This document shows positions 5,996 through 61,341 of a stretch of 64,000 bases of DNA, piece after piece. How positions within the stretch are numbered: the first letter of the stretch is position 1; each line of letters begins with the position of its first letter. A program made the translations under genes and the position numbers. This DNA is from Octopus vulgaris. Taxonomy: Eukaryota. The stretch is taken from positions 43,338,001 through 43,402,000 of the forward strand of contig OX597837.1 in NCBI GenBank assembly GCA_951406725.2, in the 5' to 3' direction. The notes below the pieces were generated by a model that saw only the letters and a list, made by a program, of their open reading frames with translations, was not told the origin of the DNA and made no database searches.

Positions 5996-6358
5996 AAAAA
6001 AAAAATGAAATGAAATGAAGGTAGTTCCTGCATAGAAGTAGCGTGATTACTGCCACCTTCGATGGCCCTATGAATTAACAGTAAAAGAAGGGAGGCAACT
6101 GTGATAGCCCTGCTAGCAAATAAAGATCACCAATGACTTCATTTTGAACAGTTGGAATGCGAAATTTTTGAAGCCGCATTCGATTGCTTTTGCCCCTATG
6201 TCATTGGAATAACAGTAAAAAATGGAGGCAACTGTGATAGCTTTGTGAGGACCGGATACTGGATAACGATCAGCAATGAATTCACCCTAAATATTTGGAG
6301 TGGAAAACTTTTAGGTGCATTTGGTTATTTTTGCATGTGCAACAGTTGCTAAGTAAAT

Positions 6359-6779
6359 ACCCATTTCTTTACTACTCACAAGGGGCTAAAGACAGAGAGG
6401 ACAAACAAGGACAGACAAAGGGATTAAGTCGATTCTATCGACTCCAGTGTGTAACTGGTACTTGTTTAATCGACCCTGAAAGGATGAAAGGCAAAGTCGA
6501 CCTCGGCGGAATTTGAACTCAGAACATAGCGGCAGACGAAATACTTGTTTCTTTACTACCCACAAGGGGTTAAACACAGAGAGGACAAACAAGGACAGAC
6601 AAACGGATTAAGTCGATTATATCGACCCCGGTGCGTAACTGGTACTTATCTAATCGACCCCGAAAGGATGAAAGGCAAAGTCGACCTCGGCGGAATTTGA
6701 ACTCAGAACGTAGTGGGAGAGTAAATACTGCAAAGCATTTGGCCCGGCGTGCTTAACGTTTCTGCCAGGTCGCCGCCTT
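6359..6779 (-). mobile_element. SINE group D, head plus 2 tandem units
   Basis: One head (aaggcggcgacctggcagaaacg) and two ~180-bp units. TSD tgctaagtaaat at 6347-6358 and 6781-6792. Confidence 0.9.
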
Positions 6780-6904
6780 CTGCTAAGTAAATGCCTCTTA
6801 GTGGGTTTCGAACGCACAATGTACAGAAATAGGACTTGTCGGGTTATTCATTTTCTGGCACAGAATATGAAGGCCATTCATCGTAATTACGTCTTTGTCA
6901 AGTG

Positions 6905-14630: not shown

Positions 14631-15014
14631 ATCAGAGAATAGTCCACGAACCTACAGTCCTAGAAAACGAAATATAGTAAATAACCATTTGAGCTGTGGA
14701 ATCTAACAAAACATAGATAAATAAAACAAAAGAAAAAAAAAAGCAGACGAAAAGCAACATCAATAATCACGTGGTTCTAGGTAAGATCACGTGGCGTACC
14801 ACACCCAGCAAGTATCTTCTCTTAGTCCTTGTATTGATTAGTGGCTTGAGTGAGATTTTGTGATAGAAACTGCATATATGTCTTGTATTAAACATGTTTA
14901 AAACAGTAAGAACGATGACGAGTCTTGGGGCTTATATGCTTCACTAAATGCTGGAGGCATATGCCATAGCATTGCAACAATCCAATTAGCGCTAAAAGAT
15001 CAAACGGCATATAA

Positions 15015-15646
15015 TACATACATACATACATACATACATACATACATACATACATACATACATACATACATACATACATACATACATACATACATACATA
15101 CATACATACATACATACATGCATACATACATACATACATACATACATACATACATACATACATACATACATACATACATACATACATACATACATACATA
15201 CATACATACATACATACATACATACATACATACATACATACATACATACATACATACATACATACATACATACATACATACATACATACATACATACATA
15301 CATACATACATACATACATACATACATACATACATACATACATACATACATACATACATACATACATACATACATACATACATACATACATACATACATA
15401 CATACATACATACATACATACATACATACATACATACATACATACATACATACATACATACATACATACATACATACATACATACATACATACATACATA
15501 CATACATACATACATACATACATACATACATACATACATACATACATACATACATACATACATACATACATACATACATACATACATACATACATACATA
15601 CATACATACATACATACATACATACATACATACATACATACATACA

Positions 15647-15678
<32 letters not shown>

Positions 15679-17184
15679 CATACATACATACATACATACA
15701 TACATACATACATACATACATACATACATACATACATACATACATACATACATACATACATACATACATACATACATACATACATACATACATACATACA
15801 TACATACATACATACATACATACATACATACATACATACATACATACATACATACATACATACATACATACATACATACATACATACATACATACATACA
15901 TACATACATACATACATACATACATACATACATACATACATACATACATACATACATACATACATACATACATAATACATACATACATACATACATACAT
16001 ACATACATACATACATACATACATACATACATACATACATACATACATACATACATACATACATACATACATACATACATACATACTACATACATACATA
16101 CATACATACATACATGCATACATACATACATACATACATACATACATACATACATACATACATACATACATACATACATACATACATACATACATACATA
16201 CATACATACATACATACATACATACATACATACATACATACATACATACATACATACATACATACATACATACATACATACATACATACATACATACATA
16301 CATACATACATACATACATACATACATACATACATACATACATACATACATACATACATACATACATACATACATACATACATACATACATACATACATA
16401 CATACATACATACATACATACATACATACATACATACATACATACATACATACATACATACATACATACATACATACATACATACATACATACATACATA
16501 CATACATACATACATACATACATACATACATACATACATACATACATACATACATACATACATTCATACATACATACGTACATACATACGTACATGCATA
16601 CATGCATGCATACATGCGTACATACATACATACATACATACATACATGCATACATACATACATACATACATACATACATACATACATACATACATACATA
16701 CATACATACATACATACATACATACATACATACATACATACATACATACATACATACATACATACATACATACATACATACATACATACATACATACATA
16801 CATACATACATACATACATACATACATACATACATACATACATACATACATACATACATACATACATACATACATACATACATACATACATACATACATA
16901 CACACATACATACATACATACATACATACATACATACATACATACATACATACATACATACATACATACATACATACATACAACATACATACATACATAC
17001 ATACATACATGCATACATACATACATACATACATACATACATACATACATACATACATACATACATACATACATACATACATACATACATACATACATAC
17101 ATACATACATACATACATACATACATACATACATACATACATACATACATACATACATACATACATACATACATACATACATAC

Positions 17185-17215
<31 letters not shown>

Positions 17216-17275
17216 CATACATACATACATACATACATACATACATGCATACTTACATACATACATACATACATA
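15015..17275. repeat. ~2.26 kb near-perfect (CATA)n array
   Basis: Visible directly; source of the long MYVC/HTYI ORFs. Confidence 0.98.
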
Positions 17276-17289
17276 TATGCATATATAGT

Positions 17290-22354: not shown

Positions 22355-22540
22355 TCTCAAATTTTGGCACAAGGGCCAGCGATTTCGGGGGAATGGCAAA
22401 GCGATTACTTCGACTCCAGTTCTCTACTCTTACTTATTGTATCAATTCTGGAAATATAAAAGGCAAAGTCGACTTCGACGTAACGTGAACTCAAAAACAG
22501 AATGACGGACGAAATGCCCCTAAGCATTTTGTCTGGTGTG
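22355..22540 (-). mobile_element. SINE group D, diverged, type-2 tail
   Basis: caaattttggcacaagggccagc...aggcaaagtcgac...gacgaaatgcc. Confidence 0.7.
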
Positions 22541-22599
22541 TTGACTTACTGAATATACATATATCTTCCTGATTGATAATAAAATATTCCTCAGTGAAT

Positions 22600-22840
22600 A
22601 CAATGGTTGTAAACGGGGTTTCTATGATTGTAAAGACCAACTTTTAATCAATAAAATTGTTCTTGAGAATTGACACAAACGCCGCAAAAATCTTTCTATT
22701 GCATGGATTGATTTTAAAAAAGCGTTTGACAGCCTTCCCCATAGCTGGATTGAGAAATTCTTGCAAATACATAAAATGTCTCCAGTTATTGATAATTTTC
22801 TGTCGAATAATATGAGGCAACGGAAAACAATTCTTATACC
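22600..22840 (+). mobile_element. R4/Dong-clade reverse transcriptase fragment, decayed
   Basis: Reads GCKRG..CKDQLLINKIVLEN*HKRRKNLSIAWIDFKKAFDSLPHSWIEKFLQIHK with a frameshift; typical R4-clade RT motifs. Confidence 0.85.
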
Positions 22841-23289
22841 GTATTCAGAGACAAGTAATATGAACGATTGGGACTTCGAAATAAACTGCAGCATTTTTCC
22901 AAATTGTCACCACTACTCTTTTGCGTGGCTCCCATTCCCCTCAGTAACCTGTCGAATGGCACAAAACAGGGGTAAATTGGAGACGATAGACAGATCAATC
23001 ACCCCCTTTGCTAATAATAACAACGCTAAACTGATCGCATTTCGCAGTTCCAACAATACTAGTTATTCTCAAATAACCAGAGGCAGATTTTTTAAGAGTT
23101 TAGTAGATACAGAAGATGATATCCCTCCTGGTTCATAGGAAAACTGCCAATTTTGGAATAATACCTGCGGGCAAGAAGTTTCCCAAAACCACGGTGATGC
23201 GTGAGTTCATCCCGTGAGATCCAAACTCCATCGCCCGTGGTCTCCACGACAGGACCATGTACGCATAACAACGGAAGATGTAATTGCAC

Positions 23290-24065
23290 AGGTATCAAAA
23301 CTGCCAAACTGGAAAGCGGTCGGAACAGACGGAATTAAGGGCTACTGGCTCAAGTGGTTTATGTCAACATACAAGTGAACGGCGTTGCAATTAAAGAATT
23401 GCCTACAGAGTGTTGCATTTCCGGAGTGGATTGTAAAAGACAACATTGTTGATGAAAGATCAGTCAAAGAGCAATGACGTTGGCAACTACTGATCCACTG
23501 CTTGATTGCATAGACTTTAAAACGGCTTACGACACGTTGCCGCATTCGTGGATTTTGGAACCACTTGACATGTGTAGAATAGCCGAGAACGTGTGTGTGC
23601 AGTGATTAAGAGATATAGAGAAAACCGGAAATCGAACTTATGACATTACGACCGTGAACCGAATAACCTAACCACTAAGCCATGGGCTTTCATATTCGGG
23701 ACATACCAACTCGCAGTCGACGGATAATCCTAAACTGGAGAAATATGGATTTCAAATTTTGGCACACCACCTGCAAGTTCGAGGAAGAGGTAGGTCGTTC
23801 ACATCGGCTCCAACACTAGAATGGTACTTATTTTATCGATCCCGAAAAGAATGGTAAAGTGGACAGCGGTGGAATTTGAACTAATAACGTAAAGACGGAT
23901 GAAATGCCGCTAAGTATTTTGCCTGGCGTGCTAACGACTCTCGTTTGCTCGTATCAGCTCGTCGCCATATTAATTGACGGAATATTAATGTAAAAGACCA
24001 CCAGGGCAAGAAATGCCTCCTCATCGATGTAACAGTTTTAAAAGACAGCATTTATGTCTTTAAGA
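23290..24065 (+). mobile_element. Second R4/Dong-like relic (RT and RLE pieces), interrupted by a SINE D
   Basis: LPNWKAVGTDGIKGYWLKWF; IDFKTAYDTLPHSWILEPLDMCRIAENV; VKDHQGKKCLLIDVTV (restriction-like endonuclease region). Confidence 0.75.
23748..23967 (-). mobile_element. SINE group D monomer, type-2 tail
   Basis: Reverse complement of head and unit, nested in the R4 relic. Confidence 0.75.
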
Positions 24066-26310: not shown

Positions 26311-26865
26311 ATGCATATATATCATAGAACTTGAATAATGGGTTTTGTTCGACTTCATGTTGCCAGGTTGCCAGAATGCTGCGTGGTATATCTTCCAGTT
26401 CTTTGCGTTCTTAGTCCAAATATCGCCGAGGTCAAATTTGACTTTCATCCTTTCGTGGCCAACAAGAGAAAAAAATTACTAAACCAAGGCGGTGTATTAA
26501 TCTAACAGTTGGAACTTCAAACTAGATGCCTCGTGGTATACAAATTCTGATTCCTTGCGTTCCGGGTTCAAACCACGTAGTATCTTACTTACGTGAAAGA
26601 CTTAACACGCACGCCCGGCATAACATCACTTTTTGGTACCTTAGGTGTGCTTAGTGGATCCGGTACTGTTGCAAGCATTCGGATCTGGTTTCTAGTTTGT
26701 GGACACCATTCACGCTCCCTCTTATCTGTCTTCGAGGTCCCATAATGGTCTACGGCACGGTCCTTTGAACAAAGACCCTAAAAGGACGTTAATAAATAAC
26801 AGATATTTTCTGCCGCTTTACGGACTCTGCCTCTTCACCCGCTCTTATTAATAGCAATAATAATG

Positions 26866-27270
26866 GTTTCAAATCTTTGCCTCAAGGGCATATTGGGGGA
26901 CGGGATTAAGTCGATTATATCGACCCCAGTGGGTAACTAGTACTTATTTAATCGATCCCGAAGTATTAAAGGCAAAGTCGACCTCGGCGGAATTTGAACT
27001 CAGAACACAAAGACAGACGAAATACAGCTAAGCATTTCTATTTCTTTACTACCCATAAGGGGCTAAACACAGGGAGGACAAACAAGGACAGACAAAGAAA
27101 TTAAGTCGATTATATCGACCCCAGTGCGTAAATGGTACTTATTTAATCGACACCGAAAAGATGAAAGGCAAAGTCTACCTCGGCGGAATTTGAACTCAGA
27201 ACATAGCGGCAGACGAAATATTGCTAAGCATTTCGCCCGGCATGCTAATGTTTCTACCAGCTTGCCGCCT
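26866..27270 (-). mobile_element. SINE group D dimer (proximal unit type-1 tail, distal unit type-2 tail)
   Basis: Head at 27270; junction cagctaagcatttc/tatttctttac near 27030. Confidence 0.9.
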
Positions 27271-27509
27271 TGCTATAATATAAATATTATTATTGCTGTT
27301 AATGGCGATGAGCTGGCAGAATATTATCAGGGTGGAAGAGACATACGGGTTTCCCTTAATGCTGAAACCTCAGTGAAAAATGTGGATAACTACGTTAACT
27401 ACGTTCTAACTATATTTTTCAACGATTTCCTGAAAAAGAAACGAGCGACAAGCATAACGTTTGTTCTGAATGAAGTTGATTTGCTCAAGAGATTTGCATA
27501 AAAGAGCGG

Positions 27510-28139: not shown

Positions 28140-29725
28140 TGCAGTAAAATGTTTTAAAACTTCTGGTTATCTAATTCATAATTTTCAAACTTTGTAAAAG
28201 AAATAAAACACAGCTATTACGCAGAATGTTAAAATACGAGCTCACTAAATCAATTTAACAAAGCTTTTCAACTAAGCATAACAAAATACAGTACAGTAAT
28301 AAACTCAGGCTACACGAAATTCTCAAAGCGGTTTTTTTTTTCTAATAGGAAAATAATAAAATTGAGAATACATAGAGCAACATGTGTAGCTTGTCGTCAA
28401 AATATTCGTGTCGTCAATCGTTTAGGAGAACTCATTAATAAAGGAATGTATTCATCATCCTTTGCAGCTAAATTGAAAGTACATAGATCAAAATGCACGG
28501 CACTTATATAAAATATTATTGCTGTATCCTGAAAGAACAAACTGCGGTCATAAGTAATAGCTAGGTTTCAGTTTGGACGGCGCTACTGATATTGCTTGTA
28601 AGCGCTATCTATGTGTATGCGTTACGTGTATCCATAAACGAGAAAATAAAATTGTATAACAATTTTGGGATTAATTTCTATTGCAGAAGCTCTGCCGAAG
28701 TGTTACGACAAATTGTGTGAAAAAAATTCATCAGTAATGATAGAATTAATATTAAAAACTGTTTTGCTATTGCAACAGATGGAGTTTGAATCCTTTGAGT
28801 TGTTAATAATTCTCTCTCTATACGTTAATGAAATTAGATCGGCCAAACACTGTTCTCATAAAATGCTTTTGACACTCTCTCTCCATTTAATATGTTCCTA
28901 TGTTGCTGAAGAATTTCAATCTAATAGTATTGACTGTATGTTAAGAGGAACTTACAATTGGTTCGGTGCTTCGAAAAGAAACCTTGGTGGAAAAATGTAA
29001 ATCTTTCAACGATACTGAAGAACCATTAAAAATGATTTCCTTTTCGAACACAAAAGGGCTAATGATAAGCTACCGAATAAAGTGAGGGTCGGAAATTTTG
29101 GGGGAGGGGGTCAGTCGATTAGATCGACCCGAGTATGCAACTGGTACTTAATTTATCGATAGCGAAAGTATGAAAGGCAAAGTCGACCTCGGTGGAATTT
29201 GAACTCAGAACGTAGCGGCAGACGAAATACCTATTTCTTTACTACTCACAAGGGGCTAAGCACATAGAGGACAAGCAAGGACAGAAAAACTGATTAAGTA
29301 GATTATATCGACCCCAGTACGTAACTGGTGCTTAATTTATCGACCCCGAAAGGATAAGAGGCAAAGTCGTCTTCGGCGGAATTTGAACTCAGAACGTAAC
29401 GGCAGACGAAATATCTATTTCTTTACTACCGACAAGGGGCTCAACACAGAGGGAACAAACAAGGACATACAAACGGATTAAGTCGATTATATCGACCCCA
29501 GTGCGTAACTTGTACTTAATTTATCGGCCCCGAAAGGATGAAAGGCAAAGTCGACCTCGCTCGGAATTTGAACTCAGAACGTAACGGCAGACGAAATGCC
29601 GCAAAGCATTTCGCCCAGCGTGCTAACGATTCTGACAGCTCGCCGCCTTACTTAGTGAAATATATTAAAATTACACAGTCAGATATTATGCAAATATTAT
29701 GCAAAGAAATTTGATATACTATATC
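28140..29725 (+). pseudogene. Decayed hAT-family transposase, split by a SINE D trimer
   Basis: KLKVHRSKCTALI; LDGATDIACKRYLCVCV; ATDG...NNSL; LIKC..HSLHLICSY..EEF..NSIDCMLRGTYNWFGAS.R (hAT DDE and CxxH motifs), with many stops and frameshifts. Confidence 0.85.
29083..29649 (-). mobile_element. SINE group D trimer (two type-1 units, distal type-2 unit)
   Basis: Single head at 29649; junctions gacgaaatacctatttc (29221) and gacgaaatatctatttc (29405). Confidence 0.9.
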
Positions 29726-47099: not shown

Positions 47100-47345
47100 T
47101 GTGCATATATTTTTGTGTGTATATGTTTGTATGTCTGTGTTTGTCCCCACCAACATCGCTTGACAACCGATGCTTTTGTGTTTACGCCCCCATAACTTAG
47201 CGGTTCGGCAAAAGAGACTGATAGAATAAGTACTAGGCTTACAAAGAATAAGTCCTGGGGTCTATGTGCTCGACCAAAGGCAGTGCTCCTGCATGGCCAC
47301 AGTGAAATGACTGAAACAAATAAACGAGTAAAAAGAGTAAAGAGA
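46911..47345 (+). mobile_element. SINE group C, full length (reference copy)
   Basis: A box tggctgtgtggt, B-box-like gggtttagttcc, CORE-like caccttgggcaagtgtctt, internal (TA)n, tail ...gactgaaacaa(gagtaaaa)n. Confidence 0.9.
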
Positions 47346-47892: not shown

Positions 47893-49093
47893 CTTAAATC
47901 ATGTATTTCTCTCATGTTTTCTGTCGCCCTGATCAACTAACAGTTTGGTTCACCACTGCTATGATTTTGTTGTCATCTACTCATTGCAAATAACTAATAA
48001 TCGGATGACAGTTTAATATTCCTTGCATTTAATATTTCGCTTCATTCACATAATTAAACATTTTCTCTTAAAGGTAGCATAGCCATTAAAAAAATGTTAC
48101 TCGCACATCAGGTGTGATTTATGGTTTCTGTGAAAGGGGTATAATGCGATGATGTGACATCTCCACGCAACTGCCGATTTCTCGTAAGGAATTTTTCTTG
48201 AGTTTGTACAGACTGCGATATTTTGGGATGTCAATATTCTATCTATATTAAGAAAAGCGAAATTCTGTCTGTCCGCATGCGACGCCTGCATCTCACACTA
48301 CATTTGCTCTACATAGACTTATTATACGTTTTCGGAATCAGGGTGGCCCCAGGATTGACAATTTGCCCTTCAGATCTGTGTTTTGTGGCTATATTTAAGA
48401 AATTATAATAGTAATAATAATAGTAAAATCACTTCAATATAAATATAGCCACTCTTCAGGTTAAAGATAAAAACAATAAAATAATAAATTAGATAACTTA
48501 ATAAATATACGTAAATAATCTTGTAAAATACGAAATATCTTAATAAATATATTCATTTGTTTCTTGAACACCCAACATAGGGATCTAATTTAAAAGCATT
48601 TGGGTTACTATTTCTAACAGGTAAAGCTTGGCTGATTTACGCCATCTTGCTCGGTGTTTGTCAGATGACATCAGCGATCAAGGGGGTGATAAATGACATT
48701 CACTTCGTTACTTTTACGTCGAGATAAGAACTCTGAGACAAATTAGCCAACAGTTGGAATTCAACTTGGGACTGGAACAATAGAATGATTCCATTGCAGA
48801 ATTAATTCTCATCCGTCCTTAACCTCTGATCAAACACCACCGAGGCATATCGTCATTATAGACATATTATAGTCATGCTATTTCGTTATCTTTAGTTTTA
48901 GGCTGTAGGCCCAGTTAATCTGCAGAAGCTAGCTTTAAAACCCGCACGGAGTGAAGCTTCTAAGTTGGTTATAAATAAAAATTATTGTGCCTAGCGTATA
49001 CTCATACGGCTCATATACGTATATGTAGTTGTCGCTTCTGTTAAATTAGGATCGATCAAAAACTGTACACAACCCATTGAGATATAAATACCT

Positions 49094-49324
49094 ATTTCTT
49101 TACTACCCACAAGAGTCTAAAAAAAGAGAGGACAAATAAGGACAGACAAACGGATGAAGTCGATTACTTCGACCCCAGTGCGTAACTGGTTCTTAATTTA
49201 TCGACCCCGAAAGGATGAAAGGCAAAGTCGACCTCGGCGGAATTTGAATTCAGAGCGTAACTGAAGACGAAATGACTCTAAGCATTTTACCCCGCGTGCT
49301 AACGATTCTGCCAGCTCACCGCCC
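49094..49324 (-). mobile_element. SINE group D monomer, type-1 tail
   Basis: TSD agatataaatacct at 49080-49093 and 49330-49343. Confidence 0.9.
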
Positions 49325-49614
49325 TATTTAGATATAAATACCTTTTAACAATACAGTGTTAAGAGATGTTTATCTCTCACTTTAACGAAACAATAAATCA
49401 TATGCATGTATATATATATATGAGTGTGTATATACGTGTACACACACACATGCATATATATATGCATACACACACGTACATTTATATCCATCTATTTATC
49501 TATACACACACACTCACACATATATACACACAAATGCGCACATTTATGTATGTATATATGCATATATATATTTATATAGTTAAATATATATTTATGTATG
49601 AATATCTATCTATC

Positions 49615-49713
49615 TGATCGAAAACCAAACCCCCTTTTTTTACCCCCAAAAGAAAAGCTCTACCTTGTAATTTGTCCTGTCTGTGTGCAGCCCTGTGTGG
49701 CTAATAAAGAAAC
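49615..49713 (+). mobile_element. Probable 5'-truncated LINE 3' end inside (TATC)n
   Basis: Ends tttgtcctgtctgtgtgcagccctgtgtggctaataaagaaa, homologous to the SINE D type-1 tail. Confidence 0.55.
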
Positions 49714-50070
<357 letters not shown>

Positions 50071-56599: not shown

Positions 56600-56845
56600 C
56601 TATTTTACTCTTTTCCTTGTTTCAGTCGTTTGACTGTGGTCACGCTGGAGCACCGCCTATAGTCGAGCAAAATCACCAGAGGACTTATTCTTTGTAAGCC
56701 TAGTAATTATTCTATCGGTCCCTTTTGCCGAACCGCTAAGTTACAGGGACGTAAACACACCAGCATCGGTTGTCAAGCGATGTTGGTGGGACAAACACAG
56801 ACACACAAACATACTCACACACACAAACACACACAACACACACAC

Positions 56846-59948: not shown

Positions 59949-60134
59949 CTGTCCGTTATTTACACTGCGTTTCCTCTTGTTTGTTTGTGCGCATGTGTGG
60001 GGGTCAATGGGTCAGTATTGTGTATGCCTATACATGCATGCATGTACGTATATATGTGTGTGTTTGCATGTGTATGTATGTATATATGTGTGTGTATGCA
60101 TATGTATGTATGTATGTGTGTGCATCGGTATGTA

Positions 60135-60913
60135 CGGCGAGCTGGCAGAGATGTTAGCACACCAGACGAAATACTCAGCGGTATTTCGTTTGCCGCTACG
60201 TTCTGAGTTCAAATTCCGCCGAGGTCGACTTTGCCTTTCATCCTTTCGGGGTCGATTAAATAAGTACCAGTTACTCACTGGGGTCGATGTAATCGACTTG
60301 ATCCGTTTGTCTGTCCTTGTTTGCCCCTCTGTGTTTAGCCCCTTGTGGGTAGTAAAGAAACAGGTATTTCCTCTGCCGCTACGTTCTGAGTTCAAATTCC
60401 GCCGAGGTCGACTTTGCCTTTCATCCTTTCGGGGTCGATTAAATAAGTACCAGTTACGCACTGGGGTCGATGTAATCGACTTGATCCGTTTGTCTGTCCT
60501 TGTTTGTCTCCTCCGTGTTTAGCCCCTTGTGGGTAGTAAAGAAATAGGTATTTCGTCTGTCTTTACGTTCTGAGTTCAAATTCCGCCGAGGTCGACATCG
60601 CCTTTCATCCTTTCGGGGTCGATTAAATAAGTACCAGTTACGCACTGGGTCCATATAATCGACTTAATCCGTTTGTCTGTCCTTGTTTGTCCCCTCCGTG
60701 TTTAGCCCCTTGTGGGTAGTAAAGAAATAGGTATTTCGTCTGTCTTTACGTTCTGAGTTCAAATTCCGCCGAGGTCGACTTTGCCTTTCATCCTTTCGGG
60801 GTCGATTAATTAAGTACCAGTTACTCACTGGGGTCGATGTAATCGACTTAATCCGTTCGTCTGTCCTTGTTTGTCCCCTCCGTGTTTAGCCCCTCGTGGG
60901 TAGTAAAGAAGTA
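60135..60913 (+). mobile_element. SINE group D tetramer: one head plus four 183-184 bp units
   Basis: Units start gtatttc at 60181, 60364, 60548 and 60731. TSD ggtatgtacg at 60127-60136 and 60914-60923. Confidence 0.95.
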
Positions 60914-61341
60914 GGTATGTACGTATCCTGCATATTTATGTGCTTGCCTGTCCGTGTTTGTGTATTTTCTATGTGTATGTGTGCGTGTGTGTGAGCATGT
61001 GTTTGTCTATGTATGCACCTCTGTCTCCTTGTGTGTGTCGTAAAATTCGCAGAAAAAATGTTGCGAGTTTACCTAACTCCTTGTCAGTTTCATCATTCCT
61101 CGTGACTTTGTTAATTTGTCGTCGCCATTGTTGTAAAACTTTTGTCGGACTGTTATCACGCTCACTGCAGTATAGCAGTATAATTAGTTAGACTAGTAAG
61201 ACCACGACTATCTATGACTGTCTAACTTCATACTCTCTCTTATACTGACACTGACTGACATTATTTATTATGACTAGCACCAATAAGTGAGGCGGGTCTC
61301 CCTTCGATATGTCATGATTCTTTATTCGTTCTCTTAATCAA

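What the first reader, a model, noticed from the sequence alone, without database searches (positions are those of the whole stretch)
60127..60923. Self-targeting SINE that appears to build polarised tandem arrays
Seen: SINE D occurs as one head followed by 1-4 units of ~183 bp (49094 x1, 6359 x2, 26866 x2, 29083 x3, 60135 x4). All three resolvable insertion sites begin GG(T/C)AT(T/G)T on the element strand (ggcatttacttagca, aggtatttatatct, ggtatgtacg). The same motif sits inside the element right after the head (gcGGTATTTcg, 60180), and unit junctions fall on it, apart from the variant at 27030. The tetramer is mosaic: units 1-2 read tgccgctacg and units 3-4 read tgtctttacg. Inference: the element carries a mimic of its own target, so new cDNAs prime inside existing copies and resolve their 5' end by homology, adding head-less units next to the head. 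Such arrays would be time-ordered records of subfamily activity.
Basis: partly seen in the sequence, partly recalled or inferred. Interest (0 to 1): 0.8.

Follow-up and report, generated by a model that had tools for sequence, protein, structure and literature searches.

The report
SINE inserting into its own head
A short jumping-DNA element prefers to land on a seven-letter site that also sits inside its own front end and that of its older relatives, so copies pile up as one head followed by head-less units; the claim that these piles are neatly time-ordered is not supported.

Summary
The array is real: a 43-bp head plus four 183-184-bp units (60137-60913) inside a perfect 10-bp target duplication. 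All 3 resolvable duplications begin within one mismatch of GGTATTT; the background is 0.2% per site. The same motif starts the units and lies between the A- and B-box-like motifs. Correction: the last units of the 26866 and 29083 arrays carry other tails. At 26866 a D unit sits inside an older-family copy, the best evidence for insertion into existing SINEs. The tail-to-GGTATTT junction recurs in contigs of three runs with three organism labels, so it is no assembly artefact. The motif predates D, so 'mimic' is the wrong direction. Every junction recreates the site, so strict head-to-tail time order is not expected and was not shown. The D tail resembles a microsatellite-inserted element end at 49671-49712, which suggests a Dong/R4-type partner (inferred). 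Best model (0.55): target-primed self-insertion with the 5' end resolved by homology. Rivals are template jumping (0.22) and DNA duplication (0.15). Verdict: a new variant of target-specific SINEs and SINE-derived tandem arrays; interest 0.55.

The parts
60127..60136 (+). Left target-site duplication GGTATGTACG, in a decayed (TATG)n tract
   Evidence: 10/10 match with right copy
60137..60179 (+). Head, about 3 nt 5'-truncated, with A-box-like TGGCAGAGATG at 60143-60153; more diverged than the units
   Evidence: box consensus recalled
60167..60196 (+). Hairpin (about 13 bp, -14.7 kcal/mol) whose 3' arm begins at the internal GGTATTT (60180-60186)
60180..60362 (+). Unit 1 (GCCGCT start); B-box-like GTTCAAATTCC at 60207-60217; core shared with older SINEs; D tail 60301-60362
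60363..60546 (+). Unit 2 (GCCGCT start), head-less
60547..60729 (+). Unit 3 (GTCTTT start, as in older C-type copies), head-less, D tail
60730..60913 (+). Unit 4 (GTCTTT start), D tail
60914..60923 (+). Right target-site duplication GGTATGTACG
6347..6795 (-). D array: head + 2 D units inside a 15-bp duplication GG(C/T)ATTTACTTAGCA
49073..49343 (-). Solo D copy inside a 14-21-bp duplication starting AGGTATTT
26857..27280 (-). Heteromer: head + D unit + unit with older C-type tail; junction 13 nt upstream of the usual site; weak TAT-rich duplication (8/9) around the whole
29095..29647 (-). Heteromer: head + 2 D units + truncated unit with a non-D tail; no GGTATTT duplication at the head
49617..49714 (+). 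Short element end in (TATC)n with a 14-bp duplication; its last 42 nt match the D tail at 33/42 (candidate partner-type 3' end)

Best explanation
D is a tRNA-type SINE whose 3' tail is read by a target-selective LINE enzyme, probably of the Dong/R4 type with a restriction-like endonuclease (inferred). It primes at GG(T/C)AT(T/G)T sites (shown for 3 of 3). That motif also lies between the A and B boxes of the head that D shares with a very abundant older SINE group, so D often lands inside D or older copies, on the same strand and in register (shown at 26866, likely at 29083). The new cDNA is homologous to the DNA upstream of the nick, so its 5' end is resolved by pairing and no second head is added (inferred). 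The product is head-(GGTATTT-unit)n. Each junction recreates the site, so later insertions can enter at any unit: the last unit is the founder, the rest are not strictly ordered. One Pol III head can read through the whole array, so arrays or old-head/new-tail chimeras can be copied again as a block and reshuffled by unequal exchange (inferred).
For: Motif at the target-derived LEFT copy in 3 of 3 duplications, p about 1e-8 to 1e-6. 26866 has a D unit between a head and an older C-type tail, with a C-like TAT-rich duplication around the whole. Units within 6359 and 29083 differ at 18 and 25 of 184 sites and share only 2 and 3 alleles, all also seen in other arrays, so they are not copies of each other. 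Tail-to-60180/83 joints stand in 40, 36 and 32 contigs of three runs, and tail+GGTA joined to a unit with an unlike first 17 nt stands in 37, 19 and 29 (top 15 of 557 joints). The first 18 nt of D units are more diverged than the rest (non-CpG 19/140 vs 74/1460, p=0.0004), as expected if inherited from the target. The 60135 head is more diverged than its units (9/46 vs 29/736, p=0.0002; non-CpG 6/34 vs 23/640, p=0.002). No T4 run occurs in the tetramer before 60965. The D tail matches a microsatellite-inserted element end (E=1.6e-5; 0 of 2428 background windows score as high). An RT fragment in the window has long relatives without an APE domain and with CCHC and PD..D motifs. Dong-R4 is the most numerous recently active LINE group in Octopus vulgaris (PMC13282606, passages). 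For R2Ol, annealing of read-through RNA to the target raises insertion (PMC6795142, passages).
Against: Only 3 duplications and 4 arrays were read in full. The first-18-nt excess comes mainly from first units (11/70, p=0.002), including the solo copy; in later units it is weak (8/70, p=0.045, with the shared GTCTTT counted twice, and p=0.36-0.47 for 10-15 nt windows); the 18-nt cut was chosen after seeing the data. So the region may simply be variable among subfamilies (one search shows frequent alleles there). The 26866 terminal unit has a D-like core (11/120 differences, against 25-34 for C solos), so it is not a plain old C copy, and its outer duplication is weak (8/9 in AT-rich DNA). The 27038 junction is off the motif. 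Tetramer unit 1 shares one uncommon allele with unit 2 and one with unit 4, which hints at exchange within the array. The partner LINE is not identified: nothing ties the 49617 piece to an ORF. No empty-site allele was seen.
Confidence: 0.55

Rival explanations
1. Template jumping in one event: the reverse transcriptase copies one RNA from its tail to the GGUAUUU at the foot of the head hairpin loop, then jumps to the 3' end of another SINE RNA whose read-through ends in GGUAUUU. The target preference then comes from RNA-primer pairing, and all units of an array have one age.
For: Junctions sit at the arm/loop boundary of a stable hairpin. Units within an array have similar divergence. Mosaic units are expected. 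R2 jumps templates in vivo (PMC3414825, passages). Read-through annealing aids R2Ol insertion (PMC6795142, passages).
Against: The 26866 heteromer would need an old-family RNA to prime first and then a jump to D. The last unit is the most diverged in both all-D arrays (p=1/8 only). The whole unit's folding is not better than shuffles (z -1.0).
Confidence: 0.22
2. DNA-level duplication: because the right duplication starts with the same 7 nt as the internal site, slippage or unequal recombination duplicates the unit, and unequal crossover changes the number.
For: Every solo copy has that direct repeat around its unit. The tetramer's units are closer to each other (7-14 differences) than to other arrays (12-25) and share two uncommon alleles. 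Unequal recombination between duplications was proposed for bivalve SINE arrays (PMC11481361, passages).
Against: Seven bases is little homology. It cannot put a D unit in front of a C-type tail (26866). The 6359 and 29083 units share no private change. The tetramer's closeness is also explained by its youth (5-10 differences from consensus each). Four-gamete patterns exclude a simple duplication tree.
Confidence: 0.15
3. A circular unit RNA is copied by rolling-circle reverse transcription, as proposed for retrozymes (recalled).
For: Exact head-to-tail register of a 183-nt unit.
Against: No ribozyme family hit and no CTGANGA core on either strand. Units of one array differ at 7-25 sites and carry different subfamily alleles. 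Mixed tails are not expected.
Confidence: 0.05
4. Assembly artefact: reads of dispersed copies were chained together.
For: No read or contig spanning this array was obtained.
Against: The units differ from each other, the array has a perfect duplication around it, and the junction stands in contigs of three runs from three studies.
Confidence: 0.02

Closest known systems
SINEU-3 of crocodilians (PMC4494074, passages)
   Same: Target-specific SINE; tandem copies ascribed to sequential insertion at one site.
   Different: SINEU-3 targets another element (Mariner-N4) and its tandem copies sandwich a duplication. D targets its own head, and the added units are head-less and in register.
TSD-(SINE)n-TSD arrays of the clam Scapharca broughtonii (PMC11481361, passages)
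   Same: One complete head first, head-truncated later units, one duplication around the array; some arrays include other families.
   Different: There the inner units also lose 3' tail and unequal recombination was suggested. Here the tails are complete and the truncation point equals the insertion motif.
SINE-derived satellites (sSat) of squamates (PMC10702118, abstract, Background, Discussion)
   Same: Tandem repeat of part of a SINE with a longer terminal unit; unit length near 150-180 bp.
   Different: sSats reach up to 1000 units, homogenise and favour subtelomeres; ascribed mainly to unequal recombination. D arrays seen here have 1-4 mosaic units, dispersed.
R1 tandem arrays with R2/R1 SIDEs in Drosophila 28S rDNA (PMC3414825, passages)
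   Same: Insertion regenerates the target, so elements stack; non-autonomous copies join the stack.
   Different: The target is rDNA and copies are separated by a 14-bp duplication, not fused by homology.
EhSINE1/EhLINE1 of Entamoeba (PMC1635306, passages)
   Same: SINE moved by a restriction-like endonuclease LINE with a short, loose preference (GGCATT in vitro).
   Different: That motif is on the nicked bottom strand, whereas D's motif is on the element strand, so the likeness may be coincidence. No self-arrays appear in the passages read.
Octopus SINEs OK, OR1, OR2 (Ohshima and Okada 1994; seen only as a citation, paper not held)
   Same: tRNA-derived SINEs of the group I infer as host (recalled, no call names it).
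   Different: Could not compare sequences; D may be one of these or an entry in Repbase or Dfam.

Membership tests
tRNA-derived SINE | Short (<1 kb), interspersed, many copies | tested here: met
   About 230 bp monomer; 5 D loci in 64 kb; 206,765-403,393 contigs laid per run (not a copy number)
tRNA-derived SINE | At least 60% identity to a tRNA over 60 nt, with A and B boxes | tested here: inconclusive
   ARAGORN 0 genes; no Rfam tRNA hit at E<=10; A- and B-box-like motifs seen by eye against a recalled consensus
tRNA-derived SINE | Flanked by target-site duplications | tested here: met
   3 of 5 D loci, 10-21 bp
tRNA-derived SINE | Transcribed by Pol III | not testable with these tools
   No raw RNA run was offered
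Dong/R4-dependent SINE | 3' end shared with a Dong/R4 LINE | tested here: inconclusive
   33/42 match to an element end in (TATC)n, but no ORF is linked to it; no LINE locus could be fetched
Dong/R4-dependent SINE | Sequence-selective insertion | tested here: met
   3 of 3 sites within one mismatch of GGTATTT; small n
Dong/R4-dependent SINE | Restriction-like-endonuclease LINE present in the genome | tested here: inconclusive
   Decayed RT at 22674 (RVT_1 E=0.008, below cut-off). Its one hit P0001 has 68 long relatives, none listing an APE domain; 2 of the 3 read show CCHC and PD..D. Two-step link; clade name recalled
Retrozyme (hammerhead-bearing tandem RNA) | Hammerhead ribozyme in each unit | tested here: not met
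SINE-derived satellite (sSat) | Tandem repeat of a SINE part with a longer terminal unit | tested here: met
SINE-derived satellite (sSat) | Long, homogenised arrays, subtelomeric bias | tested here: inconclusive
   Only 1-4 mosaic units in this window; no genome held
SINEU-3/R1-type stack | Separate copies divided by target duplications | tested here: not met
   0 of 6 junctions carry a second head
Named SINE central-domain superfamily (CORE, V, Deu, Ceph, Meta) | Shared central domain | tested here: inconclusive
   Three short core motifs absent from the text of the PMC5786205 supplement; SINEBase supplement unreadable

The most novel reading that the evidence does not exclude
D's tail is aimed at the promoter region of the SINE group it belongs to. 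Insertion between the A and B boxes puts a young body and tail under the head of an older copy and creates a new chimeric source gene, which is copied again alone or as a multimer. That would be a site-specific, repeatable route to SINE module exchange and a retrotransposition route to SINE-derived tandem repeats, visible in very many loci. The diverged head and old-type unit starts of the 60135 tetramer would be such a chimera, copied out.
Probability: 0.3. Interest if true: 0.75.

Novelty: new variant of a known kind. Interest (0 to 1): 0.55.

Why it matters
SINE module exchange and the birth of SINE-derived tandem repeats are usually ascribed to chance template switches or unequal recombination. 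A SINE whose insertion motif lies in its own promoter region offers a defined and testable route to both, in a genome where the D tail makes up roughly a quarter of the summed depth of the shared core (0.27, 0.27, 0.29 in three runs, not a copy number). It also warns annotators: such arrays are split into many 'families' or missed, and nested order cannot be read from position alone.

Tried and rejected
No whole genome was held, so genome-wide logos and ortholog tests were impossible. Pattern scans found 0 matches in viral contigs and 0 in prokaryote genomes; the single metagenome match L001 is an unrelated 20-mer coincidence. Rfam gave only microsatellite-driven or weak hits, none at gathering score. 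RNA folds of the monomer, core, head and tails were no better than shuffles (z from -1.4 to +0.8), so no conserved tail stem was shown. A search for DNA loci of the RT relative P0007 found none. Supplements of PMC9115989: files 1-4 and 5 gave no motif hit (file 5 yielded only 93 characters of text), files 6-8 were not searched and two were too large, so these say nothing about transcripts. Earlier-findings look-ups returned nothing. An age gradient along arrays was tested and is not significant. The match of D's motif to the EhLINE1 preference was considered and given little weight (opposite strand).

Full report
Observation. The window at 60127-60923 reads GGTATGTACG, a 43-bp head, four units (60180-60362, 60363-60546, 60547-60729, 60730-60913) and GGTATGTACG again. 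TRF reports period 183, 4.0 copies, 94% matches. An automated search gives duplications of 10/10 (60135), 14/15 (6359) and 19/21 (49094), all starting GG(T/C)AT(T/G)T in the left, target-derived copy. Outside the masked SINEs, 244 of 119,386 7-mers are within one mismatch of GGTATTT, so three of three has p about 1e-8, or 1e-6 with register slack. Five of six junctions sit at the internal GGTATTT register, and the one at 27038 is 13 nt upstream. The DNA is microsatellite-rich and animal-like. I take the host to be an octopus from recollection of such repeats; no call names it.

Correction to the observation. The last units of the 26866 and 29083 arrays do not carry the D tail. The 26866 terminal tail scores 28-54 against five older solo copies ('C') and 12-19 against D tails; D tails score 84-88 among themselves. 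The 29083 terminal tail is short and cannot be assigned. Neither head has a GGTATTT-type duplication. At 26866 a weak TAT-rich duplication (8/9) abuts both ends, like those of the older solo copies. So 26866 is a D unit inside a C-type element. Against a clean reading, its terminal core is D-like (11/120 differences, against 25-34 for the C solos).

Anatomy. The A-box-like motif lies in the head and the B-box-like motif in the unit (consensus recalled), so a head-less unit should not be transcribed alone (inference). ARAGORN and Rfam found no tRNA. The internal motif starts the 3' arm of a hairpin, -14.7 kcal/mol in this copy. Related motifs are present at this place in all six older solo copies aligned (2 exact, 2 with one mismatch, 2 with more), so the site predates D and is not a mimic acquired by D. 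The tetramer has no T4 run until 60965, so it could be transcribed whole.

Beyond the window. No genome was held. I laid 4 of 24 listed runs on head plus unit 1. The raw-read run gave 15 reads and is uninformative. The three contig sets, labelled as three organisms in three studies, gave 403,393, 246,792 and 206,765 contigs. Among the 15 of 557 joints shown, tail-to-60180/83 stands in 40, 36 and 32 contigs. Tail plus GGTA joined to 60197 stands in 37, 19 and 29; the only letters printed between are T-rich, which I read as the older GTCTTT-type start (inference). Loose ends before 60180 have the D tail as consensus in 897 and 562 contigs of two runs. No shown joint returns to the head start, but this head is diverged and under-laid, and rows marked 'between: not known' could hide heads. 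Contigs count variants, not copies, and none spans the array.

Partner. The last 42 nt of the D tail match 49671-49712 at 33/42 (E=1.6e-5), and 0 of 2428 background windows score as high. That piece is a 98-bp element end with a 14-bp duplication in (TATC)n. A decayed RT at 22674 has one hit whose 68 long relatives list no APE domain; two of three read carry CCHC and PD..D motifs. Restriction-like-endonuclease clades, R4 among them, are mostly target-specific (PMC4640811, passages). Dong elements target TAA repeats, though that review lists them among APE types (PMC3812793, passages). Dong-R4 had 1129 recent insertions in Octopus vulgaris (PMC13282606, passages), while another study found no evidence of recent Dong activity in O. 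bimaculoides (PMC9115989, passages). A Dong/R4-type partner is therefore an inference; no ORF is tied to the tail.

Tests among mechanisms. Simple duplication predicts shared private changes. The 6359 and 29083 units differ at 18 and 25 of 184 sites and share only alleles also found elsewhere. The tetramer's units differ at 7-14 sites and show four-gamete patterns. Unit 1 shares one uncommon allele with unit 2 and one with unit 4, so some exchange within the array is possible. Self-insertion predicts that the first 10-20 nt come from the target. The first 18 nt are more diverged overall (non-CpG 19/140 vs 74/1460, p=0.0004), but mostly in first units, including the solo copy; in later units p=0.045 with non-independent cells and not significant at 10-15 nt. 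This is suggestive only. The 60135 head is more diverged than its units (9/46 vs 29/736; non-CpG against unit 4 alone 5/33 vs 8/160, p=0.05), which fits an old head joined to younger units, though head subfamily variation is not excluded. For polarity, differences from the window consensus run 6,5,8,10 and 10,12: last unit highest in both, chance 1/8, and the consensus comes from the same ten units. Since every junction recreates GGTATTT, strict order is not expected. No ribozyme was found.

Mechanism. Shown: target preference, the internal copy of the motif, junction register, one D-in-C heteromer, recurrence of the junction in other data. Inferred: the enzyme, homology-resolved 5' joining, block re-copying, exchange. 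I give self-insertion 0.55, template jumping 0.22 (R2 precedent, PMC3414825, passages; read-through annealing, PMC6795142, passages), DNA duplication 0.15, circular RNA 0.05 and artefact 0.02.

Comparison. It works like SINEU-3 and R1 stacks, where insertion regenerates a target, and looks like the clam TSD-(SINE)n-TSD arrays and squamate sSats. It differs in that the target is its own head and the added units lose the head at that motif. Ten library searches listed no paper on a self-targeting SINE of this form, judged from listings and the papers opened. The library lacks most subscription papers, the 1994 octopus SINE paper was not held, and Repbase, Dfam and several supplements could not be seen, so the family may already be named. 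PMC4758252, PMC3531059 and PMC4824008 (passages) and PMC5786205 (one part and passages) gave background only.

Verdict. A real and frequent feature; a new variant of known kinds; interest 0.55.

Noticed in passing
window 6729-6720 (-): Unit 1 of the 6359 array starts AGTATTTACT, matching the array's own duplication (GGTATTTACT) at 9 of 10 rather than the element consensus; both units start with A. Unexplained.
   Followed up: partly
window 60160-60192 (+): The head changes in this copy turn the hairpin arms into a near-perfect DNA inverted repeat; similar changes occur in older copies at 22540 and 23941. Could be palindrome correction or a subfamily trait.
   Followed up: partly
window 49617-49714 (+): Short element end inserted in (TATC)n with a 14-bp duplication, followed by a 350-bp TATC/TC tract; shares its 3' end with D.
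   Followed up: partly
window 22590-23600 (+): Two decayed reverse-transcriptase pieces in broken frames, both with the motif around 'D(F)K.A(F/Y)D.LPHSWI'.
   Followed up: partly
window 14436, 21952, 23941, 39541 (older solo SINEs): The older relatives have weak 8-23-bp duplications rich in TAT/ATT, which suggests a different, TAA-like target for other tails.
   Followed up: partly
window 47125-47151 (+) and 56788-56810 (-): The first part of the D tail resembles an internal stretch of another repeat (85-87% over 23-27 nt).
   Followed up: no
window 15014-17287: A 2.3-kb (ATAC)n tract, 570 copies at 98% match.
   Followed up: no
joints from 60263-60299 back to 60197-60202: Older-tail SINEs also stand next to another core in many contigs, so tandem neighbours are not limited to D.
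   Followed up: no
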